Positions 1 to 43,417 are shown, counted from the first letter of the whole stretch. The stretch: 63,602 bases of DNA, filler included, from Reclinomonas americana ATCC 50394 (GCA_048213135.1; 18 parts of 18 records of this genome joined end to end with filler, not necessarily neighbours in it); one strand, 5' to 3'. Translations and numbers: made by a program. The notes: generated from the sequence alone by a model not told the origin.

Positions 1-65
1 CTCTCTCCACCCCTTCTCTGTCTCTCCATTGCTGCGATTACTCATGATTTCTCACCCCCGTGCAG

Positions 66-3905: not shown

Positions 3906-4013
3906 GCTGCGATTTCCAAGGAAGCTTGGTTGACCAGTGGATTTGACGCACTTGCATGGACGCAGCGTTTTCTGCGATCGTACACGGCACATCGAATTGT
4001 CAGCGCAACTTGA
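3906..4013 (+). CDS. Possible C-terminal end of the NWD gene (AAISKEAWLTSGFDALAWTQRFLRSYTAHRIVSAT*)
   Basis: Open frame from the contig edge to TGA at 4011-4013, on the same strand as the NWD gene. Array-type sequence begins right after it. Linkage across the gap is unproven. Confidence 0.35.
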   Translation, partial: AAISKEAWLTSGFDALAWTQRFLRSYTAHRIVSAT

Positions 4014-4580: not shown

Positions 4581-5753
4581 TCAGCACCGGAAAAGGACAA
4601 CCTCGGCATCCTCGACGATGAAGCAGCGCAGAACCAGCTCGGGAAGACACCGTGAATCTTCTTCATCCTCCTGCATCTCCTGCACAGCCTGCATGGCCAA
4701 GCGCGCGGCGTCCAGTTCAAGGCGGGCGAGGCCACGCAGCGTGGACCACACTCGTATCGTCCCGTCAATGCCACCCGCACTCACAATGCGTTCATTGTCA
4801 GGAGAGACGGCCACACACGACACCCATTCTGTGTGTCCCTTCAACCGTCGCACCTCCTCGCCACTCTCCAGAGACCACACTCGCACGGTGCTGTCTCCGC
4901 ACCCGCTCACAATATGCTCACTATCAGGGGTGACAGCGACAGACGTCACCGTACTGGCGTGTCCCTTCGGCTGTCGCATTTGCTCTCCACTTGCCAGTGA
5001 CCACACCCGCACCGTGTTGTCCCTACTGCCACTCACGACGTGTTGACCATCTGGAGTAACAGCGACAGACATCACCCAGTCAATGTGTCCCTCCAACCGT
5101 CTCACTTCTTCCCCGCTCGCCAGCAACCACACCCGCACGGTGTTGTCTCCACCCCCACTCACAACGTGCTTACCATCGGGGGTGACGGCGACACAATACA
5201 CCACTCCAGTGCCTCCTTCCAACCGTCGCACCTCCTCCCCACTCACCAGTGACCATACCCGCACTGTGTTGTCATAGCCGCCGCTGACAATGTGCTGCCC
5301 ATCAAGCGAGACGGCGACTGACATCACCGCACTGGCGTGTCCCTCCAGCCGTCGCACTTCTTCTCCACTCGCCAGCGACCACACACGTACGGTACCGTCT
5401 CCACTTCCACTCACTATCTGGTGGCCATCAGGAGTGACGGCGACACAATACACCCATCCAGTGTGTCCATACAGCCGTCGCACTTCTTCTCCGCTCGCCA
5501 GAGACCACACTCGTACTGTCTTGTCCAAGCACCCACCGACAATGTGTCTGCCATCGGAAGTGACTGTGACGGACCTCACTGCAGCGGGACTCTGAATGAT
5601 CTGTGCCAGAGGCTCGCAGTGAGACGCATGCACAGCAGCAACGTTGGAAGACACGCACACATACGACAACCGCACACGATGCACAAGCACATGAATCCAC
5701 ACACGTGCACCAACCAAGCAAAAGTACGCACAAATTCACACCTTTGTTGTCAT
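4581..5753 (-). CDS. Standalone 7-repeat WD40 protein, copy 1 (343 aa)
   Basis: Exon 1 at 5742-5753 (ATGACAACAAAG, MTTK), intron 5601-5741 (GTGTGA..CTCAC..CACAG), exon 2 at 4581-5600. Seven WD repeats plus tail ..LPELVLRCFIVEDAEVVLFRC*. Confidence 0.9.
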
Positions 5754-5781
5754 TCTCCGTGCGTGCGTGCGTGCGTGTGTG

Positions 5782-5878
5782 ATTTGCTCGCTCGGGATTG
5801 TCATCGTTTCCCGCCTTTCTTCCCCCGCCTTGCTCTGAGACGTCGTCCATCCCTCACCAGTCTGCAACCAGCACCCCG
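5782..5878 (-). promoter_or_regulatory. Conserved upstream block of the WD40 genes with E2F-like TTTCCCGC motif (representative copy)
   Basis: GTTTCCCGCCTTTCTTCTCCCGCCTTGCTCTGAGACGTCGTCCATCCCTCGCCAGGCTGCAGCCAG is near-invariant upstream of most copies. TTTCCCGC at 5807-5814 matches the E2F consensus TTTSSCGC. Confidence 0.55.
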
Positions 5879-7755
5879 CACACGATACAGCAGTATGTGG
5901 CTTCTTTGATGCCTGTGGGCTTTCAAAGACCGACATGGGACAGGTCGATGAGAAATCGGCAGAATGGACATGGTGGTGGTGACGACACAAGGTGGCGCTC
6001 CACTGCACTGTGCTGCTGACCAGCGACACTCTCTTTCGACTGACCTGCATTATCTCTCAACGAGGACTGGCATGTCGGATTGCTTGGATACGCAGCTGTG
6101 GCCCTGCACCCGAGAATCCAATGAGCACCGAGTCAGCGACACCTCATCTCCTTGGATCGGCCCACAGCGAGGTTGATGAGGGCACGATGATGGCACAAGG
6201 AACAGGAGACGAGCGACCAGCACAGCAGCTCAGCGGTGGACGAGGCAGCTGCGTCATGAGACACGTCTCCCATCACCCAAGTCACAATCAATGCCTCGCG
6301 CCTTCAATCACACTCACAGTCGGTCGGTTGAATCATCTCACGCAGGTACTGTGAGGCATGGAACCACGTGCACGTGTCTTCGCATGCCAGTGACGAGTCA
6401 CTTGCCAGCACGCCTGTCACACAGAATTGAGACAGTCAATCTCCAAGTCTCATCAACTTACTCCTCAACGCAGATGCAGAACACGTACGCACCAGACCAC
6501 GCGCGCATCTGCAGTCCCCCATGGCCACCACCATCGTCACTCGGCAGAAACAGCAACAGCCAACGTGCGCACATCATCAATCTGCTCCGCCATGCCAGCC
6601 GGGATTGAAACAAGCCACCGACCAGGCCACCCATCGCACAGCACGGCACGCATGCGTACACCCACTCACGCCACGCTCTCCATGGCCTGCACGACCTGCA
6701 GGAATGAAGTGAGTGGGAGGGAAGAAGAAAGAGCGATTAAGACGAACAAGGTCACACGCCTGCATCGTGCATTGGTGGGATTCAGGTGTGGAGCTCGAGC
6801 CGACTGAGTGAGGTGACAGCCGGCAGCGGGCGATGCACAGCACGCCTGCAATCATTACGGAACAACGAGAATGGCCTGCCCCTAAGGTGCCTGCATGTCG
6901 GTACACTGTGAGCAAAGAATGGAGGACGGGGAGAGAAATCTGCTCTGTCTCACTGACAAACACACCGATCAGCACCTGAGACCAACACGCGTTTGTCAAG
7001 AAGCAAGCCAAGGGACGCTCACACAACCATCCTGCAAGAGAGAGTCAGTATGCAGGTATGCCACCTCACACACTTCGGCATCGGGAAGCTCACCATGATG
7101 GACTGGCAGGATAGCAATCGGAACACGGTGAGCAGACCAGCAGCTCGACCTCGAGCGTGTGCGGCAAGGAGGGGTGGATGACTGGGGAAGCAGATAAGCG
7201 CACAAAGGAGGGAGACGGTGGAGAAAGAGAGAGAGAGACTCTACAAGGGACAGAGAAGGAGGACTCGAGAGCGGAAAGACAGGCATTCTTAAGAGCCCGA
7301 AGGAGAATGTCCGTGGCGCACATGCACGATGGGACATACAGAGCAGCGGTGCCAAGGAAGTGCGCAAAACAAGACGCGAGGGAAACAGACAACGGTGACT
7401 CGCTCTCACGAGGCGCATACACGAACGACGGAAGAAGCACGCACAACACAACAAAGCAAGAAAGACACAACAGACATCCAAGCAATCCATCGAGCTTGCA
7501 CACACAAATGGAGGTGAGAAAGGGACACGCCAACAGAGGGAGACATGTTCCACGCCCACCCACTCTCATTCACATGACAGGGGAACAAGCACGTGAGAAC
7601 AATTCATCACCATCCACATCGACTTCTCTCTCCTCCTGTCATCCTCTCTTCCCCCATCATCTGCACCCGCATGATCACCCACTCTCCCTCGCACGACACG
7701 GAAATAACTCACGATCACCAGCAGCCACCGCTCTCCCTCCCTTCGACTCACCACC

Positions 7756-8917
7756 TCAGCACCGGAAAAGGACAACCTCGGCATCCTCGACGATAAAGCA
7801 GCGCAGAACCAGCTCGGGAAGGCATCGTGAATCTACTTCTTCCTCCTGCATCTCCTGCACAGCCAGCATGGCCGAGTGCGCAGCGTCGAGTTCGAAGCGA
7901 GCAAGGCCGCGCGGCGTCGACCACACTCGCACCGTCCTATCTTGGCCATCCGCACTCACAATGTGCTGACCATTGAGAGAGACGGCCACAGACGATACCC
8001 ATCCAGTGTGTCCCTCCAACTGTCGTACTTCCTCCCCGCTCGCCAGAGACCACATCCGAACGGTGCTGTCTCCGCACCCACCAACAATGTGCTGGCCATC
8101 GGGAGTGACGGTGACAGACGACACCCTTCCAGTGTGTCCATCCAGCCGTCGCACTTCCTCCCCACTTGCCAGAGACCACACCCGCATGGTGCGGTCCTCG
8201 CTCCCACTTACGATGTGCTGACCATCAGGTGTGACGGTGACAGACTGCACATATCCAGTGTGTCCCGCCAACCGTCGCACCTCCTCCCCGCTCGCCATCA
8301 ACCACACTCGAACGGTGTTGTCTCCACTCCCGCTCACGATGCGCTGACCGTCGGGGGTGATGGCGATAGAGTACACCCAATTAGTGTGTCCCTGCAGCCG
8401 TCGCACCTCCTTGCCACTCGCCAGCGACCACACCCGAATTGTGTTATCCCTACTACCACTCGCGATGTGATGACCATCAGGGGTAACGACGACAGACAAC
8501 ACCGCATTGGTGTGGCCTTCCAGCCGCAGCACCTCTTCTCCACTCTCCAGCAACCACACACGTAGGGTGTTGTCTCCACCTCCACTCACGATGTGCTGAT
8601 TATCAGGGGTGACGGCGACAGACCACACCCTTCCAGAGTGTCCCTCCAGTCGTCGCACTTCTTCGCCACTCGCCAGTGACCACACTTGAACGGCACTGTC
8701 CACACACCCACCAACAATGTGCTTGCCATCGGGAGTGATGGTGACGGATCGCACTACAGCAGCGCGACTCTGAATGATCTGTGCCGATCACTCGCGGTGA
8801 GGCGCACGCACAACATCAACACAAAGAACAACAACCGCACATATGCACGAGCACACGAATGCACGCACAGACACCAACCACGCAAAAGCGCGCATACATT
8901 CACACCTTGGTTGTCAT
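7756..8917 (-). CDS. WD40 array copy 2
   Basis: Exon 1 at 8906-8917 (MTTK), exon 2 at 7756-8778, 7 WD repeats plus conserved tail. Confidence 0.9.
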
Positions 8918-10967
8918 TCTCCGTGCGTTGTGTGTGTGTGATTTGCTCGCTCGGGATTGTCGCCGTTTCCCGCCTTTTTCTCCCGCCTTGCTCTGCGACG
9001 TCGTCCATCCGTCGCCAGGCTGCAGCCAGTACCCCACACAGCATACAGCAGTATGAGAGCGATGTGGCTTCGTTGATGCGTGTGAGCTTTCGAAGACCGA
9101 CATGGGACTCGTCGATGCTAAGTCGGCAGAATGGACAAGCAGGGTGGTGGTGGTGACACGAGGTGAAGCTCCACTGCACCGTACATGTCCAGCGACACTC
9201 TCTTTCTACTGCCCTGCATTATCTCTCAACGAGGACTGGCATGTCGGTCTGCTTGGATACGCAGTTGTGGCCCTGGTGTGCTGCTGCCACAGCATTAACG
9301 AGAATCTATAACGCACCGAGTCATCGAAACCGCACACCTCCTTTGATCGGCCCACAGCGAAGCTGACGAGGTGCACGTCATGATGGTACGACGAAGAAGG
9401 AGAGTCACAGGGGACAGGAGAGGAGCGACCAGCACAGCAGCTCAGCGATTGAAGAGGCAGCTGCGTCGTGAGGCTCGCCTGCTCTCACCCAAGTCACAAT
9501 CAACGCCTCGCGCCTTCAATCATACTCACAGTCGGTCGGTGAATCGTCTCATGCATGTACTGCGAGGCAAAGAACCACGTGTCTTCGCATGCCAGTCACT
9601 TGCCAGCACGCCTGTGTTCAGATCACACACAGGCGCGCGGAGTCAGCCTGTCTCCAAGTCTCGCCAACTTGCTCCTCAGTGCAGATACAGAACACGCACG
9701 CACCATGAGTTGCTAGCCTGGCACGAGTCTGCAGTCTCCCGTGGCCACCACCAGCATCACTCGGCAGTGACAGCAGCAACCAAGGAGCGCACATCATCGA
9801 TCCGCTCCGACTTGAGGGCCGGGATTGAAAACGATTCACCGACCAGGCCATCCATCGCACATCACGACACACATGTGTACATCCTCCCAGCCACGCTCTC
9901 CATGACGTGCACGGCCTGCATAATTGAGGTGAGTGGGAGGGAAGGAGGAGAGAGAGATCACGAAGAACAGGGCCACACAACTGCTGAGTGCATGGTGGGA
10001 TGCGAGTGGGGAGCCGAGTGAGTGAGGTGACGGTCGACAACGGGCAATGCACATCACGCCTGTCATCGCCACGACATGCTTTCCATGGTCTCTGCATGCC
10101 GGTGTGCTGTGAATAAAGAATGGAGGACAGGGAGAGATATCTGCTCTGTCTCTCTGACAAACACACTGATCAACATCAGATACCAACACGCGTTTGGGCA
10201 AGAGGCAATGCGAGCTCGAGGGACAGTTCAGCACATTCAATCATCCTTCAAGAGAGAGAGAGAGAGAGAGAGAGAGAAGGAGCAGAGTCAGTATGCAGGT
10301 ATGCCACCTCACACACTTCGGCATCGACATGCTCACCATGATGAACTGACAATCGATGGCAGTCGGAACACGGTGAGCAGACCAGCATGTTCGACCTCGA
10401 GTGTGCGGCAAGGAGGGGTGGATGACTGGGGAAGCAGATGAGCGTACAAAGGAAGGAGACGGTGGAGAAAGAGAGATTCAGCAAGGGACAGAAAAGGGAG
10501 GAAAGGGATGACATGCATTCTTCAGAGCCGGAAGGAGAATGTCTACGGCGCACATGCACGATGAGAGGAAGAAAAGTGGCACCAAGAAGGTGAATCAAGA
10601 AGCGATGAAACAATCATCGGTGACTCGCTCTACTGAGGCACATACACGAACGACGGAAGATGCACACACAACAGACATCACAACAAGACGAAAAAGAGCA
10701 AGAGACTACCAAGTGATTCATCGCACTTGCACACAAAATGAAGGTGAGAAAGAGACACGCATCCAGAGAGAGATATCCTTCACGCCCACACTCACATTCA
10801 CATGACAGGGCAACAAGCACGGTGAGCAATACATCATCATCAACAACGACCTCTATCTCCTCCTCTGTCGTCCTCTCTTTCCCCCACCCGCACCCACATG
10901 ATCACCCGCATCCCCGCACAAGGCACGAAAACAACTCACAATCACCTCTCTTCTTCGACTCACCATT

Positions 10968-12226
10968 TCAGCACCGGAAGAGGACGACCTCGGCATCCTC
11001 GACGATGAAACAGCGCAGAACCAGCTCGGGAAGGCATCGTGAATCTACTTCTTCCTCCAGCATCTCCTGCACAGCTCGCATGGCCAAGCGCGCGGCGTCG
11101 AGCTCGAGGCGAGCAAGGCCACGCGGCGTGGACCACACTCGTACCGTCCTGTCGTACCCACCCGTACTCACAATGTGCTGACCGTCAGGAGAGACGACTA
11201 CAGAGACTACCGTACAAGTGTGACCTTCCAGCCGTCGCACTTCCTCGCCACTCGCCAAAGGCCATACCCGCACGGCGCTGTCCTCGCTCCCACTCACGAT
11301 GTGCTGGCCATCGGGGGTGACAGCGACAGACTGCACCGCACCAGTGTGTCCTTCTAGTCGTCGCACTTCTTCTCCACTCGTCAGTGACCACACCCGCACT
11401 GTGTTGTCCCCGCTCCCGCTTACGATGTGCTGTCCATCAGGGGTGACGGCGACTGAAATCACCCAGTCACTGTGTCCTTGCAACCGTCGCATTTCTTCGC
11501 CACTCGCCAGCGACCACATACGCACCGAATAGTCATCGCCCCCGCTCACAATGTGCTCACTATCAGGGGTGACAGCGACTGACCACACCTTATCGGTGTG
11601 TCCCTCCAGCCGTCGCACCTCCTCCCCACTCGCCAGAGACCACACTCGTACTGTGNNNNNNNNNNNNNNNNNNNNNNNNNNNNNNNNNNNNNNNNNNNNT
11701 TAATTAATTAANNNNNNNNNNNNNNNNNNNNNNNNNNNNNNNNNNNNNNNNNNNNTAGTCCCAGCTCCCACTGACCATGTGCTGACCATCGAAGGTGACG
11801 GCAACAGACCACACCTTATCATCATGTCCCTCTAACCGTCGCACCTCCTCCCCACTCACCAACGACCGCACACGCACGGTACAGTCTCCACTCCCACTCA
11901 CTATCTGCTGGCCATTGGGAGTGACGGCGACAGACCACACCGGGCCAGCGTGTCCCTCCAGCCGTCGCACTTCTTCTCCACTCGTCAGTGACCACACCCG
12001 CACTGTGTTGTCCAAGCACCCACCGACAATGTGCTTGCCGTCTGGAGTGACAGCGACGGATCGCACCACTGTCGCGAGACTCTGAATGATCTGTGCCGAC
12101 CATTCGCGGTGAGACGCACATGCACAAACACAAAGAACAACAACCGCACACACGCACGAACACACGAATGCACGCACAGACACCAAACACGCAAAAGTGC
12201 GCATACATTCACACCTTTGTTGTCAT
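10968..12226 (-). CDS. WD40 array copy 3 (interrupted by gap 11656-11755)
   Basis: Exon 1 at 12215-12226 (MTTK), exon 2 starts at 12090, WD repeats on both sides of the gap, tail ends at 10968. Confidence 0.8.
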
Positions 12227-14260: not shown

Positions 14261-15406
14261 TCAGCACCGGAAAAGGACGACCTCGGCATCTTCGACGATG
14301 AAACAGCGCAGAGCCAGCTCGGGAAGACACCGCGAATCTTCCTCCTCCTCCTGCATCTCCTGCACAGCTTGCATGGCCGAGCGCGCGGCATCGAGTTCGA
14401 GACGAGCGAGGCCGCGTGGCGTGGACCACACTCTCACGGTCTTGTCGTAGCCACCTGCGCTCACAATGTGCTGACCATCGGGAGAGACGGCCACAGACGA
14501 CACCCATCCTGTGTGACCATCCAACCGCCGCACTTCCTCGCCACTTGCCAGAGACCATACCCGCACGGTGCTGTCCTCGCTCCCACTCACGATTTGCTGA
14601 CAATCCGGAGTGACAGCGACAGACCACACCGCACCAGTGCGCCCCTCCAATCGTCGCACTTGGTCTCCACTCATCAGCGACCACACCCGCACTGTGTTGT
14701 CCCCGCTCCCGCTTACGATGTGCTGACCATCTGGAGTAACAGCGACTGACATCACCCATCCAGTGTGTCCCGCCAACCGTCGCACCTCTTCCCCGCTCGC
14801 CAGCAACCATACCCGCACGGTGCTGTCCTCGCTCCCACTCACTATATGCTGACTATCAGGGGTGACAGCGACTGACCACACCCAGTCAGCGTGTCCTTCC
14901 ATCCGTCGCACCTCCTTGCCACTCGCCAGCGACCACACCCGGATGGTGCTGTCCCAGCTCCCACTCACGATGTGATGACCATCAGGGGTGACGGCGACAG
15001 ACATCACCGTGTCGGCGTGTCCCTCTAACCGTCGCACCTCTTCCCCACTCGCCAGCGACCACACACGTACAGTACAGTCTCCGCTCCCACTGACAATAAG
15101 CTGACCATCAGGAGTGACGGCGACAGAGAACACCCCGCCATCGTGTCCCTCCAGCCGTCGCACCTCCTTGCCACTCGCCAGAGACCACACTCGAATCGTG
15201 TTGTACATGTCCATGCATCCACCGACAATGTGCTGACAATCTGGAGAGACGGCGACGGATCTCACCACAGAAGTGAGACTCTGAATCTGTGCCGATCATT
15301 CGCGGTGAGACGCACATGCACAAACACAAAGAACAACAACCACACCAATGAACACACAAACATCAACCACGCAAAAGTGTGCACACATTTACACCTTTGT
15401 TGTCAT
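14261..15406 (-). CDS. WD40 array copy 4
   Basis: Exon 1 at 15395-15406 (MTTK), exon 2 at 14261-15286, 7 WD repeats plus tail. Confidence 0.9.

Positions 15407-27742: not shown

Positions 27743-27743
<1 letters not shown>
26588..27743 (-). CDS. WD40 array copy 8
   Basis: Exon 1 at 27732-27743 (MATK), exon 2 at 26588-27607. Confidence 0.9.

Positions 27744-27746
<3 letters not shown>

Positions 27747-27788
<42 letters not shown>
27747..27788. repeat. (GT)21 microsatellite directly upstream of the copy 8 ATG
   Basis: Perfect dinucleotide run. Confidence 0.95.
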
Positions 27789-27790
<2 letters not shown>

Positions 27791-34800: not shown

Positions 34801-35970
34801 TCAGCACCGGAAAAGGACGACCTCGGCATCCTCAACGATGAAACAGCGCAGAATCAGCTCGGGAAGACACCGTGAATCCCGTTCCTCCTCGGTGGCCCTC
34901 TCCTCCTCCTGCATCTCCTGCACAGCTCGCATGGCCGAGCGCGCGGCGTCGAGTTCGAAGCCAGCAAGGCCACGCGGAGACGACCGCACTCGCACGGTTT
35001 TGTCCTTGCCACCCGCACTCACAATATGCTGACCATCGGGAGAGACGGCCACAGACGACACCCATCCGTCATGTCCCTCCAACCATCGCTCTTCCTCGCC
35101 ACTTGCCAGAGACCACATCCGAATTGTGCCGTCTCCGCTCCCACTCACGACATGCTGGCCATCGGGAGTGATGGTGACAGACGACACCCAGTCAGTTTGT
35201 CCATCAAGCCGTCGCATTTCCTCCCCACTTACCAGTGACAATACCCACACGTCGCTGTCGCCACCCCCACTCACAATGTGCTCACTATCAGGGGTGACGG
35301 CGACAGACCACACATATTCCTTGTATCCTTCTAGTCGTCGCACCTCCTCCCCGCTCGCCAGCAACCACACCCGCACTGTGTTGTCTTCACCACCGCTGAC
35401 AATGTGGTGACCATCAGAAGTGACGGCGACAGACCGCACCGAAATAGCGTGCCCCTCTAACCGTCGCACCTCTTCCCCGCTCGCCAGAGACCACACTCTC
35501 ACTGTGTTATCGAAACTGCCACTCACGATGTGTTGACAATCGGGGGTGGCGGAGACACAATATACCCATCCAGTGTGTCCCACCAGCCGTCGCACCTCTT
35601 CCCCACTCGCCAGCGACCACACACGTACTGCGTTGTCTCCACCGCCACTGACAACGTGCCGGCCATCAGGAGTGACGGCAACAGAAAACACCACATCAGT
35701 GTGTCCCACCAGCCGTCGCACCTCTTTTCCACTCGCCAGTGACCACACTCGGACGGTTCTGTCCATGCATCCACCAACAATGTGCTTCCCATCGGGAGTG
35801 ACGGCAATGGACCGCGCCGCAGAAGCGAGACTCTGAATGATCTGTGCCGACGATTCGCGGTGAGGCGCACGCAGCAGCAATCAAAGACAAACATAACAAC
35901 ACAAAGAACAACAACTGCACACATGCACAAGCACACAAAAGTTCGCACAAATTCACACCTTTGTTGTCAT
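34801..35970 (-). CDS. WD40 array copy 11
   Basis: Exon 1 at 35959-35970 (MTTK), exon 2 at 34801-35841. The tail has an in-frame duplication, EEERATEEER. Confidence 0.9.
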
Positions 35971-37250
35971 TCTCCGTGTGTGCGTGTGTGTGTGTGTGTG
36001 TGTGTTTGCTCGCTCCGGATTGTCACCGTTTCCCGCCTTTCTTCTCCCGCCTTGCTCTGAGACGTCGTCCATCCCTCGCCAGGCTGCAGCCAGCACCCCA
36101 CACAACATACAGCAGTATGAGAGCAATGTGGCTTCTTTGATGCGTATGGGCTTTCAAAGACCGACATGGGACACGTCGGTGCGAAAAATCGGCATGCGCA
36201 GCATGGACATACTGGCGACACAAGGTGGCGCTCCACTGCATCGCGCTGCTGTCCAGCGACACTCTCTTTCGACTGACCTGCATTATCTCTCAACGAGGAC
36301 TGGCATGTCGGGCTGCTTGGATACGCAGTTGTGGCCCTGCACCCGAGAATCCACTGAGCATCGAGTCTTCGAAACCTCACACCTCCTTGGATCGACCCAC
36401 AGCGAGGTTGATGAGGGCACGATGATGGCACAAGGAATAGGGGAGGAGCGAACAGCACAGCAGCTCAGCAATGGAAGAGGTAGCTGTGTTGTGAGGCTCG
36501 CCTCCTCTCACCTAACTCACAATCAATGAATCGTGCCTTCAATCACACTCACAGTCTGTCGGTGAATCGTGTCGCGTACGTACTGTGAAGCACGACACCA
36601 CGTGTCTTCGCATGCCAGAGACGAGTCACTTGCCAGCACGCCTGTCGCACAGAATTGAGTTAGTCAATCTCCAAGTCTCACCAACTTGCTCGTCAACGCA
36701 GATGCAGAACACGCACGCACCATGTGTTACTGGCCCAGCACGCGTCTGCAGTCTTCCATGACCACCAGCATCATCACTCGACAGAGACGGCGGCAGCCAA
36801 GGTGCACACACCATCGATCCGCGCAGACCTGCCAGCCGGGATTGAAAACGATCCACCGACCAGGCTATCCATCGCACATCCACCCAGCCACGCTCTCCAT
36901 GACGTGCACGGCCTGCATAATTGAGGTGAGTGGGAGAGAAAGAGGAAAGAAAGATCACGAAGAACAGGGCCACACAACTGCTGAGTTCACGGTGGGATGC
37001 GAGTGGGGGAGCCGAGTGAGTGAGGCAACAGGCAACGGGCAATGCACTGCACGTCTGCAATCGTCATGGAACAACAACGACGAGCACGTGCCTTCAAGGC
37101 GTCCGCATGTCGGTGCGCAGTGAGCAAAGGAATGGAGGTTGGAGAGAGACACCTGCTCTGTCTCACTGACAAACACACCGATCAGCACCTGATGCCAACA
37201 CGCATTTGGTCAAGAGGCAAGCGAGGAACGTTTCTGCATCCAGACGTCCA

Positions 37251-37254
<4 letters not shown>

Positions 37255-37294
<40 letters not shown>
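37255..37294. repeat. (AG)20 microsatellite in spacer
   Basis: Perfect run. A shorter run lies at the homologous site near 10250-10277. Confidence 0.9.
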
Positions 37295-37295
<1 letters not shown>

Positions 37296-38017
37296 AGACT
37301 CAGCAGGCAGTCATGCCACCCCACACACTTCGGTGTCGGGATGCTCACCATAATGAACTGGTAGGATGGCAATCGGTGCATCATGAGCAGACCAGCATGC
37401 TCGGCCTCGAGCGTGTGCGGCAAGGAGGGGTGGATGACTGGGGAAGCAGATGAGCACACAGAGGAGAAAGACGGCGGAGAAAGAGAGAGAAAGAGAGAGA
37501 CTTTACAAGGGACAGAGAAGGAGGGCTCGAGAGCGGAATGACATGCATCCTGCAGAGCCGGAAAGAGAATGTCCGCGGCGCACAGGCACAATGAGAGGAA
37601 GAAAAGTGGCACCAAGGAGGTGCGCAAAGCAAGACGCGAAGAAACAATCATCGGTGATTCGCTCTCCTGAGGCACTCACATGGGCGACGAAAGATGCACG
37701 CTCAACAAACATCACAAAGAGACGAAAAAGACACAACAGACTACCAAGTGATTCATCGCGCTCGCACACACAAACTGAGGTGAGAAGGAAACAAGCACAC
37801 ACACGGAGAGAGACATGCTTCACGACCTCTCACTCACATTCACGTGACAGGGAAACCGACGGGGGAGCTCCTCGTAAACAACAATCTCTGCCTTCCTCTG
37901 TCATCCTCTCTTCCCCCACCTGCATCCCGCATGATCACCCACTCTCCCTCGCAAGACACGGAAAACAACTCACAATCATGAGTAGCCAGCCACCTTCCCT
38001 CCCTTCGACTCACCAGC

Positions 38018-38771
38018 TCAGCACCGAATGAAGACGACCTCGGCATCCTCGACGATAAAGCAGCGCAGAACCAGCTCGGGAAGGCATCTTGAATCTTCCT
38101 CTTCCTCCTGCATCTCTTGCACGGCCTGCATGGCCGAGCGCGCGGCGTCGAGCTCGAGGCGAGCAAGGCCACGCGGAGTGGACCACACTCGCACGGTCTT
38201 GTCCTTGCCACCCGCACTCACAATGTGATGACCATCGGGAGAGACGGCCACGGACGACACCCATCCGTCATGTCCCTCCAACCGTTGCACTTCCTCTCCA
38301 CTCGCCAGAGACCACACCCGAATGGTGCAGTCCCCACTCCCACTCACAATATGCTGACCGTCGGGAGAGACGGCGATCGATTGTACAAATGCAGTGTGTC
38401 CCTCCAACCGTCTCACCTCCTCCCCGCTCGTAACTGACCACACCCGCACGGTGCAGTCCCCGCTCCCACTCACGATGCGCTGTCCATCAGGAGTGACGGC
38501 GACAGCGTATACCCATCCAGCGTGTCCCTCCAACCGTCGCACCTCCTCCCCGCTCGCCAGTGACCACAACCGCATTATGTTGTCTCCACCGCCACTGACA
38601 ATGTGCTGACCATCTGGGGTGACGGCGACTGNNNNNNNNNNNNNNNNNNNNNNNNNNNNNNNNNNNNNNNNNNNNTTAATTAATTAANNNNNNNNNNNNN
38701 NNNNNNNNNNNNNNNNNNNNNNNNNNNNNNNAACCACGCAAGTAGCGCACATTCTACACCTTTGTTGTCAT
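38018..38771 (-). CDS. WD40 array copy 12 (gap 38632-38731, atypical upstream region)
   Basis: C-terminal blades and tail at 38018-38631, MTTK micro-exon at 38760-38771. Confidence 0.75.
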
Positions 38772-39655
38772 TCCCGTGTATGTGTGTGAGAGAGAAAGAG
38801 GGTGTGTGCGTGCGTGCGTGCGTGCGTGCGTGTGTGTGTGTGTGTGTGTGTGTGAAGCACTCTGATTCATCCGACGGAACATCAACAACATCCTCTTTCT
38901 CTCTCGCGCGCGTGCGTGCGCCTCGCGGTGCTGTCTGTGTCTCAGTGCCTCCTCTCTCTCTCTCTCCACGTCCTCGGCGTGGTGCTCCATTCAGCGATGT
39001 GAGTGAGATGTTGTGGCATTGAATGTGTATGCATGCATGCCGAGCCTGTTCAACACGACGCGACATGAGCATCAACTCCTCCGAGCCATGCACGTGAGTG
39101 GGGTGGAGAGCAACAGCACACGATTCTGAAAGAGAGTCACGAGGCAATTCAACTCGTGAGTGGGGTGCATCACACCGGATACATGTACACATGCAGTGCA
39201 GGGCAAGTGCACTCCCTCTCTCCTCGTGGCGTGCGCGGAGAAGGGTGGCCATCTGAATCGATGCTTGGTGAGCTCTCCATGTTCATGCGGTGCCAGTGTG
39301 CGATGGGGAGACGCGTCAATGATGCCATTGGCCGCTGCTTTGATAGGCGACAGGCTGGCATCCGCTCCATTAGAATGACAGGGACGAACAAACACATGTC
39401 GTGTGGTGGGTTAGTGAGGGAGGACTCGCTCAATGCCGAGCAGCGCGTGTTAGTACACATCTCAACCACCCACTCACACCTCGTTCTCGGAATACTCTTG
39501 TTGCAATCCCACGGCACAGAGCTGTGTCTGCTTTCCGGCTTCCTCCACTTGGGAGGGCAACAAGGAAGCACGTTGGTACGTATGAGGCGGTGCGGCAGTC
39601 AACAAGACAGAGTTACGCGCAGTGACAGCAATCGGTCTTCGTATATTCATTCACG

Positions 39656-40791
39656 TCACTCCGTCCAGCACCATCCAGGCGCACGGCGTTCAATCACCGC
39701 TGCATCTTCCAGCGCAAAACACCGCAGCACAACGTCGACCAGGATCCAATCGCGGTCATCTTCTTCGGCAAGCAGCTCGTTGACGGTCACCACCGCCTGT
39801 CGGGCGGCCGCAACCTCGTGCCGCGCCAGCCCGCGCGGCGTGGACCACACTCGGATCGTCTCGTCTCCGCACCCACTTACAATGTGCTGGCCATCGGGGG
39901 ACACGGCCACAGACGACACAAACCCAGTGTGTCCCTCGAAGCGTCTGACTTCTTGCCCACTTGCCAGCGACCACACACGGATCGTCCTGTCGTCACTCCC
40001 GCTCACAACGTGCTGACCATCGGGAGTGACGGCGAGAGACCACACCGCACCAGTGTGTCCCCCCAGCCGTAGTACTTCCTCCCCACTCGCCAGTGACCAC
40101 ATTCGTACCGTACGGTCATCGCCCCCGCTCACAATGTACTTGCCATCGGGAGTGACGGCGACAGACCACACTTTTTCAGCGTGCCTTTTCAGTCGCCACA
40201 CTTCTTCTCCAGTCCCCAGCGACCACACCCGTACAGTGCTGTCCCAGCTACCACTGACAATGTGCTGCCCATCCAGCGTGCTGGCGACAGAGAGCACCAT
40301 GCCAGCTGCGGGGTGCCCGTCCAACCGTTGCACTTCCTCCCCACTCGCCAGTGACCACACTCGAACTGTCTTGTCCAAGCTGCCACTCACAATACGCTGA
40401 CCATCGGGAATGACGGCGACACACATCACTCTTTCAGTGTGCCCCTCCAACCGCCGCACCTCTTCTCCACTCGCCAGTGACCACACCCGCACAGTCTTGT
40501 CGTGGCTGCCACTCACAATGTACTGGCCGTCGGGAGCGACAGCGACTGAAAACACCAAATCAGTGTGTCCCACCAGTTGTCGCACTTCTTCCCCACTCGC
40601 CAGTGACCACACTCGCAGCGTCTTGTCAAGGCCTGCACTCACGATGAAATGACCATCGGGAGTGATGGCGACACCTCGCACCGTGTCTATGTGACCTCGC
40701 AAGACCTGTGTTGACCAGTCATGGTGAGATGAACACAAAGAGAGAGAGCAACAGTCAAACACACGAATCCCTCACGCACCTTGGTCGCCAT
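39656..40791 (-). CDS. Divergent WD40 array copy 13
   Basis: Exon 1 at 40780-40791 (MATK), 74-nt intron, exon 2 at 39656-40705 starting VLRGHIDTV. Divergent tail RGLARHEVAAARQAV..ILVDVVLRCFALEDAAVIERRAPGWCWTE*. Confidence 0.88.
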
Positions 40792-42956
40792 TGGAGAAGG
40801 GGAAGGATAAATGTCACTTGTGCCCTCTCTTGATAGGATCGCTTCTGTTGACTTGCGCTCTTCGGAGAACCAGCCACCTGGTTGGTACTCGACTGCGGTG
40901 GTGGTCGCGAAGAGTCTGTTCTCACGTGGGTGCGTGTGTGCGTGTGTTTGTGTTCGTTTGCTCGCTCCTGATTGTCACTCTTTCCCGCCTTTCTACTCCC
41001 GCCTTGCTCTGAGACGTCGTCCATCCCTCGCCAGGCTGTAGCCAGCACCCCACATAGCATGCGGTAGTGTGTGAGCAATGCGGTGCGTGTGGGCTTTCGA
41101 AGACCGACATGAGACTGTCGATGCGAAGTCGGCAGAATGGACATGCAGGCGGTGGTGACACCAGGTCGCGCTCCACTGCATCGCGCTGCTGTCCAGCGAC
41201 ACTTCATTTCGACTGGCCTGCATTCTCTGCCAACGAGGACTGGATTGTCGGGCTGCTTGGATGTGCAGCTGTGGCCCTGTTGTTCATGTTGTCACAAGAA
41301 TCCAATGAGAACCGAGTCATCGAAACCGCACACCTCATTGGATCGGTCCACAGCGAGGTTGATGAGGGCACGATGATGGCACAAGGAACAGGAGAGGAGA
41401 GACCATTACAGTAGCACGTGCACAGAGATGGAAGAGGCAGCCGCGTCGTGAGGCTCGCCTCCTCTCACCCAAATCACAATCAATGCCTCGTGACTTCAAT
41501 CACACTCACAGTCGGTCGGTGAATCGTCTCACACATGCACTGTGAAGCACGGAACAACATGTGGTCATGTTGCATGCATGCCAGTGGCAAACTACTTACC
41601 AGCACGCCTGCGTTCAGATCAAACACAGAATTGAGTCAGTCAATCTTCAAGTCTCGCCGCAGAAAATGCATGAACGCACCATGTGTTGCAGGCCTTGCAC
41701 GTATCTGCTGTCCCCCATGGCCACCACCATTGTCACCTGGCAGTGACAGCAGCAACCAAGGTGTGTACATTATCGATCTGCTCCGACTCGCCAGCCGGGA
41801 TTGAAACAAGCCACCAACCAGGCCACCGGCGCACATCACGACACGCATGTGTACATCCCCCCACCACGCACTCCTTGACGAGCACGGCCTGCACGAATGA
41901 GGTGAGTGGGAGGGAAGGAGGAAAGAAAGATCACGCCGAACAAGGCCATGGCCACACACCTGCTTCGTGAACGGGTGTGGAGCTCACTGAGTGAGGTGAC
42001 AGCCGGCAGCGGGCGATGCACAGCACGCCTGCAATCATTACGGAACAACGAGGCGGACCTGCCTCCAAGGCGTCCGCATGTCGGTACGCTGTGAGCGAAA
42101 GAAATGAGGAAGGAGAGAGATATCTGCTCTGTCTCACGTGACGAACACACCGATCAGCAGCTGATACCAACACGCGGTTGGGCAAGAAGCAAGCCAAGGG
42201 ACGCTCATACAACCATCCTGCAAAGGAGAGTAGAGTGAGCAGAGTCAGTCTGCAGTCATGTCACCTCACACACTTCGGTGTCGGGATGCTAACCATGATG
42301 GACTGCCCAACACGATGGCTGAATCGCAGCCGGCGCACATTGAGCAGATACTCGGATCGACCTTGTGCGGGAAGGATGGGGCACATGACTGGGGAAGAAG
42401 ATAAGCGCACAAAGGAGGGAGACGGCGGAGAAAGAGAGAAACTCTGCAAGGGACAAAAAGCGGGAGAGCTGAATGACAGGCATTTTTCAGAACCGGAAAG
42501 AGAATGTCCGCGGCGCACAGGCACAATGGGAAGCAGGGCGGTGATGCCAAGGAAGTGTGCAAATGAAGACGCGAGGAAATAGACAACGGCGGCTCGCCCT
42601 CCTGAGGCGCATACACGAACGACGGAAGAAGCACGCACAACAGACATCACAAAGAGACAAATTGACACACCAGATTTCCAAGCAATCCATCTCGCTCGCA
42701 CACACAAATAGAGGTGAGAAAGAGACACGCATGCAGAGGGAGACATGTTCCACGCCCACCAACTCTCATTCACATGACAGGGCAATAAGCACGCGAGAAG
42801 AATTCACCACCATCAACAGCGATCTCTCGTCCTTCTCTGTCGTCCTTCTATCCCCCCACCTGCACCATGAACAACCACCCATTCTCCCTCGCACAACAAG
42901 AAAAAAAACTCACGATCGCCAGCAGCCACCGCTCTCCCTCCCTTCGACTCACCAAC

Positions 42957-43417
42957 TCAGCACCGAAAAAGGACAACCTCGGCATCCTCGACGATGAAAC
43001 AGCGCAGAACCAGCTCGGGAAGACATCTTGAATCTTCTTCTTCCTCCTGCAAATCCTTCACAGCCTGCATGGCCGAGCATGCGGCGTCGAGTTCGAAGCG
43101 AGCAAGGCCACGCGGCGTCGACCACACTCGCACGGTCTCGTCGTAGCCACCCGCACTCACAATGTGCTGACCATCGGGAGAGACGGCCACAGACGACACC
43201 CATCCGTCATGTCCCTCCAACTGTCGTACTTCCTCGCCACTTGCGAGAGACCACATCCGCACGGTGCTGTCCTCGCTCCCACTCACAATATGCTGACCGC
43301 TGGGAGTAACAGCGATGGCGCACACCCTTCCAGTGTGTCCCTCCAACCGGCGCACTTCCATCCCACTTACCAGCGACAATATTCGCACTGTCTCGTCCCC
43401 ACCGCCACTCACAATGC
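42957..43417 (-). CDS. WD40 array copy 14 (3' part only)
   Basis: Last blades plus conserved tail, truncated at the contig end. Confidence 0.8.

What the first reader, a model, noticed from the sequence alone, without database searches (positions are those of the whole stretch)
4581..43417. Hypervariability confined to predicted top-face residues of each blade
Seen: the scaffold is nearly invariant. Variation is concentrated in the residues after GH (TGW, ASA, TNA, DDK, AAR, TEW, DGW, SNT), the residue in V-x-S/C-V (Y, M, W, L, F, Q, I, T, S) and SG-x-x-D-x (SGD, GYD, SRD, SFD, SWD, SED, CGD). Many changes are radical. Known: these match the ligand-facing positions under positive selection in Podospora HET-E/HET-D WD repeats. 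Inference: diversifying selection for recognition specificity.
Basis: partly seen in the sequence, partly recalled or inferred. Interest (0 to 1): 0.72.

Follow-up and report, generated by a model that had tools for sequence, protein, structure and literature searches.

The report
Tandem WD40 genes with variable top face
A eukaryote-like stretch of DNA carries at least 13 tandem copies of a small seven-bladed WD40 propeller gene whose differences sit almost entirely at the known ligand-contacting residues of each blade, a design already known from fungal HET-E-type receptors but here found in stand-alone propellers arranged as a gene array.

Summary
Observation confirmed. In 78 blades taken from 15 full or partial copies, the six highest-entropy positions of the 42-residue repeat are the three residues after GH, the x of V-x-S-V, and the two residues flanking the invariant Asp. 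By the predicted strand layout and the published WD40 hotspot rule these are R1-2, R1, D-1 and their neighbours on the top face. They coincide with the positively selected HET-E/HET-D codons.

Interpretation partly supported. Hotspot codons change about 5-10 times faster than the scaffold (nonsynonymous rate 1.25-2.2 against 0.2). They exceed the gene-average synonymous rate: approximate M1a/M2a LRT 32, and 0 of 30 constant-dS null simulations reach the observed value. The excess over the synonymous rate at the same codons is only 1.2-1.8-fold (p 0.01-0.5), and 5 of 38 simulations of a null with site-specific rates match the observed LRT. Diversifying selection is likely, not proven.

New context: the window is a concatenation of contigs. 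The array (about 3.2 kb units, two-exon gene, orphan C-terminal tail, no NACHT) looks eukaryotic and sits beside bacterial contigs. The kind is known, the organisation is a new variant, and the interest is moderate.

The parts
3905..43417 (-). Tandem array on 7 concatenated contigs. Units of about 3.2-3.4 kb, GC about 0.55, with 13 gene 5' ends and 13 gene 3' ends. Contig breaks fall inside units.
   Evidence: N-run joiners (44 N + 12 nt + 44 N) listed. Self-BLAST of one unit shows the period. Composition. 13 start motifs.
14261..15286 (-). Exon 2 of a complete copy, used as reference: 7 WD40 blades plus a 55-aa tail and the stop codon.
   Evidence: Pfam WD40 8.6e-79. AlphaFold2 pLDDT 89.4, pTM 0.85, 7 blades plus helix 290-314. 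Foldseek rmsd about 1 A to 7big, 5yzv and 2ymu.
15395..15406 (-). Inferred exon 1 of the same copy: ATG plus 3 codons (M-T-T-K) followed by a GT donor. The intron spans 15287-15394 and ends in cacAG.
   Evidence: Unit alignment. Motif ATGRCRACMAAGGTG occurs 13 times, all on the minus strand and each upstream of a WD exon, against 0.04 expected. No RNA evidence.
4581..5600 (-). Exon 2, complete copy (exon 1 at 5742-5753).
7756..8778 (-). Exon 2, complete copy (exon 1 at 8906-8917).
20018..21034 (-). Exon 2, complete copy with a 2-codon deletion in strand a of blade 6 (exon 1 at 21178-21189).
23228..24250 (-). Exon 2, complete copy (exon 1 at 24363-24374).
26588..27607 (-). Exon 2, complete copy. 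Blade 5 lacks one codon at the b-c turn, so the tetrad Asp is missing (exon 1 at 27732-27743).
34801..35838 (-). Exon 2, complete copy with a 6-residue insertion in the acidic tail helix (exon 1 at 35959-35970).
39656..40705 (-). Exon 2 of the most divergent complete copy. It has a different tail end, a 2-residue insertion in the d-a loop of blade 4, and a shorter intron of about 74 nt (exon 1 at 40780-40791).
   Evidence: Identity to the reference copy is 67%.
10968..11655 (-). Partial copy cut by a contig end: blades 3 (part) to 7 plus tail.
11758..12069 (-). Partial copy cut by a contig start: blades 1 to 3 (part). Start motif at 12212-12226.
17633..17902 (-). Partial copy: blades 1 to 3 (part). 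Start motif at 18033-18047.
29294..29685 (-). Partial copy: blades 6-7 plus tail.
31927..32310 (-). Partial copy with a frame-shifting deletion inside blade 7. Either a pseudogene or an assembly error.
   Evidence: Blade hits lie in two frames. Translation.
32412..32585 (-). Partial copy: blades 1 to 2 (part). Start motif at 32734-32748.
38018..38631 (-). Partial copy: blades 4 (part) to 7 plus tail.
42957..43417 (-). Partial copy: blades 5 (part) to 7 plus tail.
2880..3804 (+). A different gene, cut by the contig end: pentapeptide repeats followed by at least 4.5 WD40 blades of the same blade type, variable at the same positions.
   Evidence: PF00805 at 2e-8. Blades. Its blades lie 0.12-0.21 (scaffold nt distance) from the nearest array blade and 0.185-0.27 from each other.

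Best explanation
The region is a tandem array of at least 13 paralogous copies of a two-exon, eukaryote-type gene.

Shown: each copy encodes a stand-alone seven-bladed WD40 propeller followed by a conserved, family-specific helical C-terminal tail of about 55 residues. The blades share a strongly constrained scaffold (dN/dS about 0.2). They differ mainly at five to six residues per blade, and nearly every blade has its own combination of these residues.

Shown by strand layout plus a published rule, not by coordinates: those residues form the top, ligand-contacting surface (R1-2, R1, D-1 and neighbours).

Inferred: each paralogue presents a different binding surface on a common chassis, and the constant tail couples all of them to one common partner or location. 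The array would then be a germ-line repertoire of binding specificities. It would be kept diverse by selection acting on the hotspot residues and by occasional exchange of whole blades, in the manner of the WD40 sensor domains of fungal HET-E/HET-D/HET-R.

Not shown: that selection rather than lack of constraint drives the turnover, what the ligands are, and that the gene is expressed and spliced as modelled.
For: Concentration of variability at positions 3, 4, 5, 7, 23 and 25.

All six fall among the 10 of 42 positions that make up the d-a loop, R1 and the b-c turn. The hand-computed chance of that is C(10,6)/C(42,6), about 4e-5.

Nonsynonymous rate at the hotspots is 1.25-2.2, against 0.2 for the scaffold, on two tree designs.

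Approximate M1a/M2a LRT is 32.1, with omega2 = 1.85 and sites 4, 5, 7, 23 at posterior above 0.94. M7/M8 gives 55.9 and M8a/M8 gives 30.1.

Under a constant-dS null with the hotspots at omega = 1 and the tree re-inferred, 0 of 30 simulations reach the observed LRT (maximum 5.6). Mean estimated omega is 0.98-1.12, so the pipeline is unbiased.

Pooled FEL for the hotspots of blades 2-6 gives beta/alpha 1.8, p = 0.010. Position 5 gives 2.75 (p = 0.035) and position 23 gives 2.25 (p = 0.048).

Hotspot residues are not a neutral sample. W is 38 observed against 9.8 expected and P is 1 against 24.5. N, Y, K, M and S are enriched and A, V, L, T and R are depleted. The sites are therefore filtered yet still turn over at or above the silent rate.

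There are 67 distinct residue combinations at positions 5/7/23/25 among 71 blades.

Replacements are radical.

The WD part is an island of divergence. Four-fold-site p-distance is 0.309 in the blades, 0.193 in the tail, 0.176 in the intron and 0.111-0.177 upstream. The blades exceed the tail in 12 of 15 copy pairs, the intron in 14 of 15 and the far upstream region in 15 of 15.

The copies are functional-looking. All 8 complete copies have open frames, tail dN/dS is about 0.15, and a start-codon/donor motif is kept in 13 of 13 copies.

The positions coincide with the selected HET-E codons. They also coincide with the variable hotspot sites reported for highly repetitive WD40 proteins in general (PMC5587647, passages).
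Against: With a synonymous rate fitted at the same codons the excess is small and mostly not significant.

On the all-blade tree no single site reaches p<0.05. Position 5 gives 2.25 (p = 0.08). Positions 7 and 25 have beta below alpha.

Pooled five hotspots give 1.2 (p = 0.24) and 1.44 (p = 0.36). The four HET-E-equivalent positions give 1.2 (p = 0.53) and 1.44 (p = 0.087).

A null without any positive selection but with site-specific rates gives an M1a/M2a LRT at least as large as the real one in 5 of 38 simulations.

Pairwise counts give pN(hotspot)/pS(all) of only 1.0-1.25. Among 8-35 independent sister pairs, pS measured at the hotspot codons themselves (0.30-0.51) exceeds pN there (0.20-0.40).

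The codon models are my own approximate implementation, with branch lengths fixed at M0 and a grid or interpolation. Trees rest on 126 nt.

No ligand, no expression data, no coordinates of the model, and the organism is unknown.
Confidence: 0.6

Rival explanations
1. Relaxed constraint only. The hotspot residues are solvent-exposed loop positions that the fold does not need. After gene duplication they drift at roughly the neutral rate, with no selection for new specificities.
For: FEL-type estimates are compatible with omega = 1. 5 of 38 no-selection simulations reproduce the site-model LRT. Sister-pair pN at the hotspots does not exceed pS at the same codons. Pairwise pN/pS is about 1.
Against: Residue usage at the hotspots departs strongly from the mutational expectation: W up 4-fold, P down 25-fold, chi-square 119-395 on 19 df per site. 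The counts are not phylogenetically independent. Part of the nonsynonymous mutations is therefore rejected, yet the net rate still equals or exceeds the silent rate. The nonsynonymous rate exceeds the gene-average synonymous rate in 30 of 30 comparisons with a neutral simulation. Silent divergence is about twice as high in the blades as in the flanks, which drift at exposed residues does not explain.
Confidence: 0.25
2. Apparent turnover produced by mosaicism. Old, fixed differences between blades are moved between copies and positions by gene conversion or blade exchange, or by chimeric short-read assembly of a repeat array. This inflates inferred substitution counts at exactly the positions where blades differ.
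For: For 16 of 72 blades the nearest neighbour is a blade at a different position in another copy. For example the TPDSEH blade is blade 6, 4 or 5 in different copies. Contigs break inside units. Short-read assemblies are known to misbuild internally conserved WD40 arrays (PMC12222747, abstract passage). Elevated synonymous rates at some hotspot codons, with alpha 1.8-2.7 at positions 4, 7 and 25, fit imported multi-nucleotide differences.
Against: The all-blade tree treats every blade as its own lineage and gives the same rates as the position-wise trees. For 55 of 72 blades the nearest neighbour is the positional homologue, and these homologues still differ at the hotspots. Copies differ by about 20% in nucleotides, which is enough for assemblers to separate them. 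The differences between blades still had to arise at these positions.
Confidence: 0.08
3. The array is a decaying or non-functional amplification, for example satellite-like or a contaminant curiosity, without a role as proteins.
For: One copy carries a frameshift (31927-32310). Two copies carry in-frame deletions in core elements. No RNA holder was found, but that is not evidence either way.
Against: Scaffold dN/dS is 0.2 and tail dN/dS about 0.15. All 8 complete copies have open frames. The coding signal is restricted to the one frame. The ATG-N9-GT motif is conserved in 13 of 13 copies.
Confidence: 0.04

Closest known systems
Podospora anserina HET-E / HET-D / HET-R (HNWD/NWD family of NACHT-WD40 NLR-like proteins)
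   Same: 42-residue WD40 repeats with a conserved scaffold. Hypervariability falls at the same codons: two pairs flanking the conserved Val of strand a and the Asp of the b-c turn, plus the residues after GH. These map to the top interaction surface. Almost every repeat carries a unique combination: 55 of 69 there (PMC1805685) and 67 of 71 here. There is a sign of repeat exchange between family members, and the coding part is more variable than the flanks.
   Different: The array genes have no HET or NACHT domain: 0 of 54 spacer ORFs hit Pfam, and the gene model starts 4 codons before the propeller. There is a fixed 7 blades instead of variable repeat numbers. Within-gene repeat identity is 73.5% nt / 68% aa, instead of over 80 to 100%. 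Blades are mostly positional homologues rather than homogenised within a gene. There is an extra conserved C-terminal tail with no detectable relatives. The organisation is a tandem gene array. FEL-type positive selection is not significant here.
Highly or moderately repetitive WD40 proteins of prokaryotes, protists and fungi (Hu et al. 2017), e.g. Nostoc Npun_R6612 'WRAP' (PDB 2YMU) and Thermomonospora PkwA (5YZV)
   Same: These are the best structural matches, at rmsd 0.9-1.2 A and 41-43% identity. The scaffold is a canonical DHSW-type one. It has been reported that conserved repeats remain diverse at the predicted hotspot sites (PMC5587647). WRAP shows nonsynonymous-only changes, six of them at one position (PMC6805158).
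   Different: Those are usually multi-domain proteins with 14 or more blades in one chain. Here diversity is spread over many separate 7-blade paralogues in a tandem array with an intron. Internal identity (0.68) is just under their 0.7 'HR' cut-off, and their metric was not reproduced exactly.
Single-copy WD40 adaptor propellers such as WDR5 or Tup1
   Same: Same fold: TM 0.78-0.81 normalised to the query. Same use of the R1-2/R1/D-1 residues for partner binding (PMC3419727).
   Different: Those are conserved single genes with divergent blades and fixed partners. Here the binding residues are the least conserved part and the gene is amplified.

Membership tests
WD40 seven-bladed beta-propeller (Pfam PF00400 superfamily) | Repeated GH...WD units recognised by the family profile | tested here: met
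   PF00400 at E 8.6e-79 and 1.1e-84 for two copies, with 6-7 stretches.
WD40 seven-bladed beta-propeller (Pfam PF00400 superfamily) | Four-stranded blades closing into a 7-fold ring | tested here: met
   AlphaFold2 pLDDT 89.4, with 27 strands of 3 or more residues plus an N-terminal bridge residue. Foldseek rmsd is about 1 A to solved 7-bladed WD40 propellers.
WD40 seven-bladed beta-propeller (Pfam PF00400 superfamily) | [quoted passage not shown] | tested here: met
   H2 in 59 of 75, S20 in 63 of 76, D24 in 74 of 74 and W30 in 69 of 75 blades. Which Ser belongs to the tetrad is recalled, not tested.
Highly repetitive (HR) WD40 with diverse hotspots (Hu et al. 2017) | Internal repeat identity at least 0.7 (HR) or at least 0.4 (MR) | tested here: inconclusive
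   Mean amino-acid identity between blades 2-6 of one protein is 0.68 (scaffold only 0.76) over 80 pairs in 8 genes. That meets MR and is borderline for HR. Their exact metric was not reproduced.
Highly repetitive (HR) WD40 with diverse hotspots (Hu et al. 2017) | Diversity concentrated at the predicted hotspots R1-2, R1 and D-1 | tested here: met
   Positions 5, 7 and 23 are three of the four highest entropies. The rule is from PMC3419727.
HNWD/NWD NLR family (HET-E, HET-D, HET-R) | NACHT NTPase (and an N-terminal effector such as HET) on the same polypeptide as the WD40 repeats | tested here: not met
   The array gene model is ATG + 3 codons + intron + propeller. 0 of 54 ORFs of at least 50 aa in two spacers hit Pfam at E <= 0.01. 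A coding signal is present only in the WD exon. A separate pentapeptide-WD40 gene (2880-3804) may have a NACHT upstream, but the only hit is 22 residues at E 0.18.
HNWD/NWD NLR family (HET-E, HET-D, HET-R) | Repeats over 80% to 100% identical within a gene, kept so by concerted evolution | tested here: not met
   Within-gene nucleotide identity is 0.735. The nearest neighbour is in the same gene for 1 of 72 blades and is the positional homologue in another copy for 55 of 72.
HNWD/NWD NLR family (HET-E, HET-D, HET-R) | Variable repeat number | tested here: not met
   8 of 8 complete copies have 7 blades. Only one genome was seen.
HNWD/NWD NLR family (HET-E, HET-D, HET-R) | Hypervariable codons at the two pairs flanking conserved repeat positions, on the top surface | tested here: met
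   Positions 5, 7, 23 and 25 correspond to their 7, 9, 25 and 27. The numbering offset is inferred from the conserved flanked residues and the loop assignments, not from an alignment to HET-E itself.
HNWD/NWD NLR family (HET-E, HET-D, HET-R) | Significant dN/dS > 1 at those codons by counting and FEL methods | tested here: inconclusive
   significant against the gene-average dS, not against the site-specific dS.
HNWD/NWD NLR family (HET-E, HET-D, HET-R) | Role in allorecognition or cell death with a polymorphic partner | not testable with these tools
   Organism and partner unknown.

The most novel reading that the evidence does not exclude
An unidentified eukaryote, possibly soil-dwelling, keeps a germ-line repertoire of single-domain WD40 'binders'. 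These are a tandem array of a dozen or more propellers, each with its own 7 x 5-6 residue top-face paratope on a constant scaffold. All carry one orphan C-terminal tail that plugs them into a common effector. The recognition module would thus be uncoupled from the NACHT switch found in fungal NLRs. The array shares a blade pool with a pentapeptide-WD40 (possibly NACHT) gene nearby. It may therefore also exchange blades with it, acting as a cassette reservoir for that receptor.
Probability: 0.2. Interest if true: 0.8.

Novelty: new variant of a known kind. Interest (0 to 1): 0.5.

Why it matters
Top-face hotspot diversification on a constant WD40 scaffold is the recognised signature of fungal HET-E-type non-self receptors and of recently amplified WD40 proteins. 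Here the same signature appears in stand-alone propellers that are multiplied as whole genes, not as repeats inside an NLR, and that carry a conserved orphan tail. If that is real, propeller-based recognition repertoires can be built in a second way, by a paralogue array, and outside the known NLR architecture. The array is also a compact natural data set: about 80 blades on one scaffold with about 67 different hotspot combinations. It could be used to study how WD40 surfaces acquire specificities. On the practical side, the window mixes eukaryote-like and bacterial contigs, so any annotation of this 'genome' as one organism would be wrong.

Tried and rejected
Whole-genome access: none is held for this window.

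Relatives of the tail:
- The word-indexed protein search of tail residues 284-343 in near-length proteins gave 78 candidates and none at E <= 0.001.
- The same search in longer proteins gave 23 candidates and none.
- The metagenome scan used patterns that included the tail motif. Of the 80 loci kept, 0 carry the tail by tblastn; the best hit has E 0.36.
- The protein atlas gave one hit at 0.76 for the tail, below its chance level.

Relatives of the propeller:
- Prokaryotic genome contigs gave only generic WD40 at <= 44% identity, and the window's own source is not there.
- Near-length proteins gave at best 62% identity over 83% of the query, never covering the tail.
- The exhaustive representative search lists only giant multi-propeller proteins in its top 150, so it cannot show small orthologues.

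Sequencing runs:
- One listed run, a rhizosphere metagenome, holds 0.05 of the words. No RNA holder is listed.
- Laying it gave 28 short contigs, 2 of them at >= 99% and 15 under 90% likeness, on both blades and spacers.
- It may be the source sample or a relative, so I draw no habitat or expression conclusion.

Non-coding RNA: there were 0 Rfam matches at gathering score and 0 tRNAs in the window.

Upstream exons or domains in the spacers: none were found.

NACHT on contig 1: only a 22-residue Walker-B-like hit at E 0.18, so it is not claimed.

Pairwise Nei-Gojobori counts were abandoned as a test because the hotspot sites are near saturation.

A first FEL table was wrong because zero-likelihood grid points gave NaN. 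It was fixed.

PMC7159879 was read for hypervariable WD40 systems. It bears only on other domains.

Full report
WHAT THE WINDOW IS

The 63.6 kb window is not one piece of DNA. It contains 17 joiners of the form 44 N + 12 bases + 44 N, so it is a concatenation of short contigs.

Contigs between 3905 and 43417 have GC of about 0.55. They have a strong strand skew, no long start-to-stop ORFs, and (GT)n, (AG)n and (GTGT)n microsatellites.

Contigs from 43518 onward have GC 0.57-0.65 (0.60-0.65 in 9 of the 10 2-kb windows). They carry ordinary bacterial genes:
- integrase-like;
- an exonuclease with the Exonuc_X-T_C domain, ABC solute-binding protein and permease, OYE-type reductase, enoyl-CoA hydratase, and SDR.

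The finding therefore lies in eukaryote-like contigs that were filed together with bacterial ones. No whole genome is held.

ANATOMY OF THE ARRAY

Self-comparison shows a unit of about 3.2-3.4 kb repeated head to tail on the minus strand. Copies are 75-84% identical in nucleotides.

Each unit ends in a stop-to-stop frame of about 340 codons with seven WD40 repeats (Pfam E 1e-79 to 1e-85). These are followed by a conserved tail of about 55 residues.

The frame has no start codon. A stop lies directly upstream in most copies.

The alignment of seven full units shows a conserved ATG followed by nine bases and a GT donor. Then comes a TG-rich gap of about 75-140 nt, and then cacAG directly before the first codon of the WD frame, in phase.

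The motif ATGRCRACMAAGGTG occurs 13 times in the window. All 13 are on the minus strand, each upstream of a WD exon. Chance expectation is 0.04, and 0 of 100 shuffles gave 13.

I therefore read the gene as two exons: M-(T/A)-T-K, then the propeller and tail. This is inference, because no RNA evidence is available.

A sliding dN/dS and stop-codon scan over the unit alignment finds a coding signal only in the WD exon (frame-specific ratio about 0.2, no stops). Of 54 ORFs of at least 50 residues in two spacers, 0 match Pfam at E <= 0.01. No Rfam family or tRNA is present. So the array genes are stand-alone propellers.

There are 8 complete copies, all with open frames. Seven further pieces are cut by contig ends, one of them with a frameshift in blade 7.

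THE OBSERVATION

I cut out 78 blades with a profile built from one copy and repaired the few indels by hand.

Numbering from the G of GH, the entropies are:
- position 7: 3.25 bits;
- position 23: 3.22;
- position 5: 3.19;
- position 25: 2.84;
- position 4: 2.57;
- position 3: 1.80;
- all other positions at or below 1.91, most below 1.2.

The same positions vary among positional homologues in different copies (mean within-index entropy 1.67-2.07 bits).

At positions 5/7/23/25, 67 different combinations occur in 71 blades.

Replacements there are radical: mean BLOSUM62 is -0.91 with 62% negative, against +0.08 with 32% negative in the scaffold.

Only 'nearly invariant scaffold' is too strong, since scaffold identity between blades is 0.76-0.79.

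WHERE THE POSITIONS LIE

AlphaFold2 on an alignment of 12 copies gives a confident seven-bladed propeller (pLDDT 89.4, pTM 0.85). A long helix follows at residues 290-314, and the end is poorly predicted.

Foldseek finds designed and natural WD40 propellers at about 1 A (7big, 5yzv, 2ymu) and also WDR5.

DSSP places strands a, b, c and d at repeat positions 6-11, 17-22, 26-31 and 37-42. Positions 1-5 are therefore the d-a loop and 23-25 the b-c turn.

Wu et al. 2012 (PMC3419727, passages read) define the top-face hotspots from sequence:
- R1 is the residue after the first (V,L,I) of strand a;
- R1-2 is two residues before R1;
- D-1 is the residue before the tetrad Asp.

Here these are positions 7, 5 and 23.

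I could not obtain model coordinates. The face assignment rests on strand topology plus this published rule, not on a measured geometry.

All six most variable positions fall among the ten positions of these top-side elements. The hand-computed chance is about 4e-5.

The lesser variable positions 16 and 33 are in bottom loops and have rate ratios of only 0.4-0.65.

COMPARISON WITH HET-E/HET-D

Paoletti et al. 2007 (PMC1805685; sections 9 and 10 read) found four codons, 7, 9, 25 and 27, under positive selection by a counting method and by FEL. They form two pairs around the conserved codons 8 and 26. One pair lies in the d-a loop and the other in the b-c turn, on top of the propeller.

That geometry is identical to my 5, 7 around V6 and 23, 25 around D24.

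Ament-Velasquez et al. 2025 (PMC12222747, passages) use seven high-dN/dS positions: 10, 11, 12, 14, 30, 32, 39. With the same offset logic these are my 3, 4, 5, 7, 23, 25, 32. Six of the seven are my top six.

The match is inferred from the flanked conserved residues. I did not align HET-E itself.

IS IT SELECTION?

Method. No PAML or HyPhy was available, so I wrote a GY94-type likelihood. It reproduces the IQ-TREE M0 value (-4842.12 against -4842.24). I used branch lengths fixed at M0.

All-blade tree. On a tree of 73 blades the global omega is 0.355 and kappa is 3.46.

Constant synonymous rate (the PAML assumption):
- omega is 1.8, 1.8, 2.2, 1.8 and 1.25 at positions 4, 5, 7, 23 and 25;
- M1a/M2a LRT is 32.1, M7/M8 is 55.9 and M8a/M8 is 30.1;
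- sites 4, 5, 7 and 23 have posterior above 0.94.

Site-specific synonymous rate (FEL):
- no site is significant: position 5 gives 2.25 (p = 0.08) and position 23 gives 1.8 (p = 0.15);
- positions 7 and 25 are below 1;
- pooled, positions 4, 5, 7, 23 give 1.44 (p = 0.02), the five hotspots give 1.2 (p = 0.24), and the four HET-E-equivalent positions give 1.2 (p = 0.53).

Seven separate trees of positional homologues give the same picture:
- position 5 gives 2.75 (p = 0.035) and position 23 gives 2.25 (p = 0.048);
- the five hotspots give 1.44 (p = 0.36), and in blades 2-6 they give 1.8 (p = 0.010);
- the scaffold gives 0.2.

Two parametric simulations with tree re-inference bracket the result.
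- Null 1: constant synonymous rate and hotspots at omega = 1. 0 of 30 replicates reach the real LRT of 26.06 from the same fast pipeline (maximum 5.6), and the estimates are unbiased.
- Null 2: every site keeps its fitted overall rate, but beta never exceeds alpha. 5 of 38 replicates reach it.

Tree-free checks agree with 'about neutral or somewhat above'. Thirty-five independent sister pairs were chosen on scaffold codons only. They give pN(hotspot)/pS(all) of 1.0 to 1.21, but pS at the hotspot codons themselves is higher than pN.

Conclusion. Hotspot residues are replaced significantly faster than silent sites change on average. Whether they are replaced faster than silent sites in the same codons remains open.

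TWO FURTHER OBSERVATIONS BEARING ON THE CHOICE BETWEEN SELECTION AND DRIFT

First, hotspot residue usage is far from the mutational expectation derived from four-fold-site base frequencies:
- W 38 against 9.8;
- N 21 against 5.3;
- Y 18 against 5.8;
- P 1 against 24.5;
- A, V, L, T and R all depleted.

The sites are therefore filtered for interface-type residues, yet they turn over at the silent rate or faster. The counts are not phylogenetically independent and the expectation is crude.

Second, the blades form an island of divergence within the unit. The p-distance at four-fold sites is 0.309 in the blades. It is 0.193 in the tail, 0.176 in the intron and 0.111-0.177 in the upstream DNA.

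Some copy pairs have almost identical tails (1 of 23 four-fold sites differ) but blades at 0.35. The blades exceed the tail in 12 of 15 pairs, the intron in 14 of 15 and the far upstream region in 15 of 15.

This fits homogenisation of the flanks with diversity retained in the blades. It also fits blade exchange with more distant family members, or a locally raised mutation or conversion rate. I cannot separate these.

Variation is also uneven around the ring. Hotspot dN is 0.90-0.98 in blades 3-5 and 0.39-0.58 in blades 1, 2, 6 and 7.

HOW THE BLADES ARE RELATED

For 55 of 72 blades the nearest neighbour (scaffold nucleotides only) is the same blade number in another copy. For 1 of 72 it is another blade of the same copy. 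For 16 of 72 it is a different blade number in another copy; 6 of these 16 are blades of the divergent copy at 39656, and that copy is the nearest neighbour in 2 more.

The array therefore grew by duplication of the whole seven-blade gene. There are hints of later blade exchange, and no within-gene homogenisation.

Within-gene blade identity (0.735 nt) is only a little lower than between-copy identity of homologous blades (0.78 nt).

A second gene lies on the plus strand at 2880-3804, cut by the contig end. It has pentapeptide repeats (PF00805, 2e-8) followed by blades of the same type. These blades are closer to particular array blades (0.12-0.21) than to each other (0.185-0.27).

A NACHT upstream of it is suggested only by a 22-residue Walker-B-like hit at E 0.18 on the neighbouring contig. 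I do not claim it.

RELATIVES ELSEWHERE

The propeller has many generic relatives. Among proteins of similar length the best is 62% identical over 83% of the query, and none covers the tail.

The tail has no detectable relative:
- none in the word-indexed protein collection at near or longer lengths;
- none in the 80 metagenome loci kept from a scan that used a tail motif;
- none in the atlas.

The top 150 of the exhaustive representative search are all giant multi-propeller proteins. That search is therefore uninformative for small orthologues.

One rhizosphere metagenome run holds short contigs that match both blades and spacers at 85-99%. It may be the source sample, so I treat it as no independent evidence.

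INTERPRETATION

The best-supported reading (0.6) has three parts:
- a paralogue repertoire of binding modules;
- a constant, tetrad-stabilised propeller and a constant tail under purifying selection;
- a top surface rebuilt in every copy from interface-type residues, most probably maintained by selection for diversity.

Simple relaxation of constraint (0.25) is not excluded by the codon tests. It is disfavoured by the residue filter and by the divergence island.

Mosaicism or assembly chimeras (0.08) could inflate the rates but cannot create the positional pattern.

A dead amplification (0.04) is contradicted by the strong purifying selection on the scaffold and tail.

NOVELTY

Hotspot diversity on a conserved WD40 scaffold is documented for the Podospora NWD family. 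It is also documented in general terms for highly repetitive WD40 proteins of prokaryotes, protists and fungi (PMC5587647, passages). The WRAP propeller shows nonsynonymous-only change (PMC6805158, passages). The phenomenon itself is therefore known.

The new elements are:
- the carrier, a stand-alone seven-blade propeller with an orphan tail and no NACHT;
- the way the repertoire is built, as a tandem array of whole genes with mostly positional homology rather than concerted repeats within an NLR.

I did not search the literature specifically for tandem arrays of WD40 genes. My three paper searches were aimed at HET-E, recently amplified propellers and hotspots. 'Not described' is therefore not claimed.

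CAVEATS

- The codon models are my own and approximate.
- The trees rest on 126 nucleotides.
- The contigs come from a fragmented assembly of a repeat array.
- There are no coordinates, no transcripts and no organism.

Noticed in passing
window 1-63602 (joiners e.g. 3805-3904, 43418-43517): The window is a concatenation of about 18 short contigs joined by 44 N + 12 nt + 44 N spacers. It mixes eukaryote-like contigs (GC about 0.50-0.58) with bacterial ones (GC 0.57-0.65).
   Followed up: partly
window 43518-63602: Typical bacterial genes on short contigs: a tyrosine-integrase-like ORF (43620-44561), an exonuclease with the Exonuc_X-T_C domain (47256-48662), an NmrA-like protein, an ABC solute-binding protein and permease (52431-55541), an OYE/pyridine-nucleotide reductase (57807-59783), an enoyl-CoA hydratase and an SDR. 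They are probably a different organism from the array.
   Followed up: partly
window 2880-3804 (+) and 48-350 (+): A second WD40 gene has pentapeptide repeats in front of blades from the same blade pool as the array. A VLVLDGYDE-type Walker-B-like stretch lies on the neighbouring contig (NACHT E 0.18 only), and an FxHxSxxEYxAA-like stretch lies at about 2600-2700. It is possibly an intron-split NACHT-pentapeptide-WD40 gene.
   Followed up: partly
window 2063-2377: An 85-bp tandem repeat with 3.7 copies at 90% identity (also scored as a 171-bp period), upstream of the pentapeptide-WD40 exon. Its role is unknown.
   Followed up: no
window 31927-32310: An array copy with a frame-shifting deletion inside blade 7. 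The tail is still intact. It is either a pseudogene or an assembly error.
   Followed up: partly
window 39656-42956: The most divergent unit. Its tail ends differently (extra residues after the last Cys), it has a 2-residue insertion in a d-a loop and a shorter intron, and its upstream region has a different insert before the ATG. Its four-fold-site distance to the other copies is 0.35-0.51 in the blades and 0.80-0.93 in the tail.
   Followed up: partly
unit alignment columns 1600-2560, e.g. window 15410-16300 (-): The roughly 1 kb directly upstream of the start codon is the best conserved part of the unit (p-distance 0.09-0.13). It is better conserved than the coding exon, has no coding signal and no Pfam or Rfam match. 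It may be a promoter or 5' UTR, or a homogenised tract.
   Followed up: partly
window 27747-27788, 37255-37294, 10251-10277, 35976-36005, 38802-38854: Perfect or near-perfect dinucleotide and tetranucleotide microsatellites ((GT)21, (AG)20, (AG)13, (GT)15, (GTGT)13) at corresponding places in the spacers. Their length differs between units.
   Followed up: no
array blades, e.g. 4842-4964, 11481-11603, 35203-35322: A blade type marked by TPDSEH in the a-b loop sits at blade 6, 4 or 5 in different copies. This suggests exchange of whole blades between positions, or an assembly chimera.
   Followed up: partly
window 14261-17531 against run X1: A rhizosphere metagenome run holds 28 short contigs that match blades and spacers of the unit at 85-99% likeness. 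Some have joints that skip one or three blade lengths. They come from related copies or a related strain, and possibly from the source sample.
   Followed up: partly
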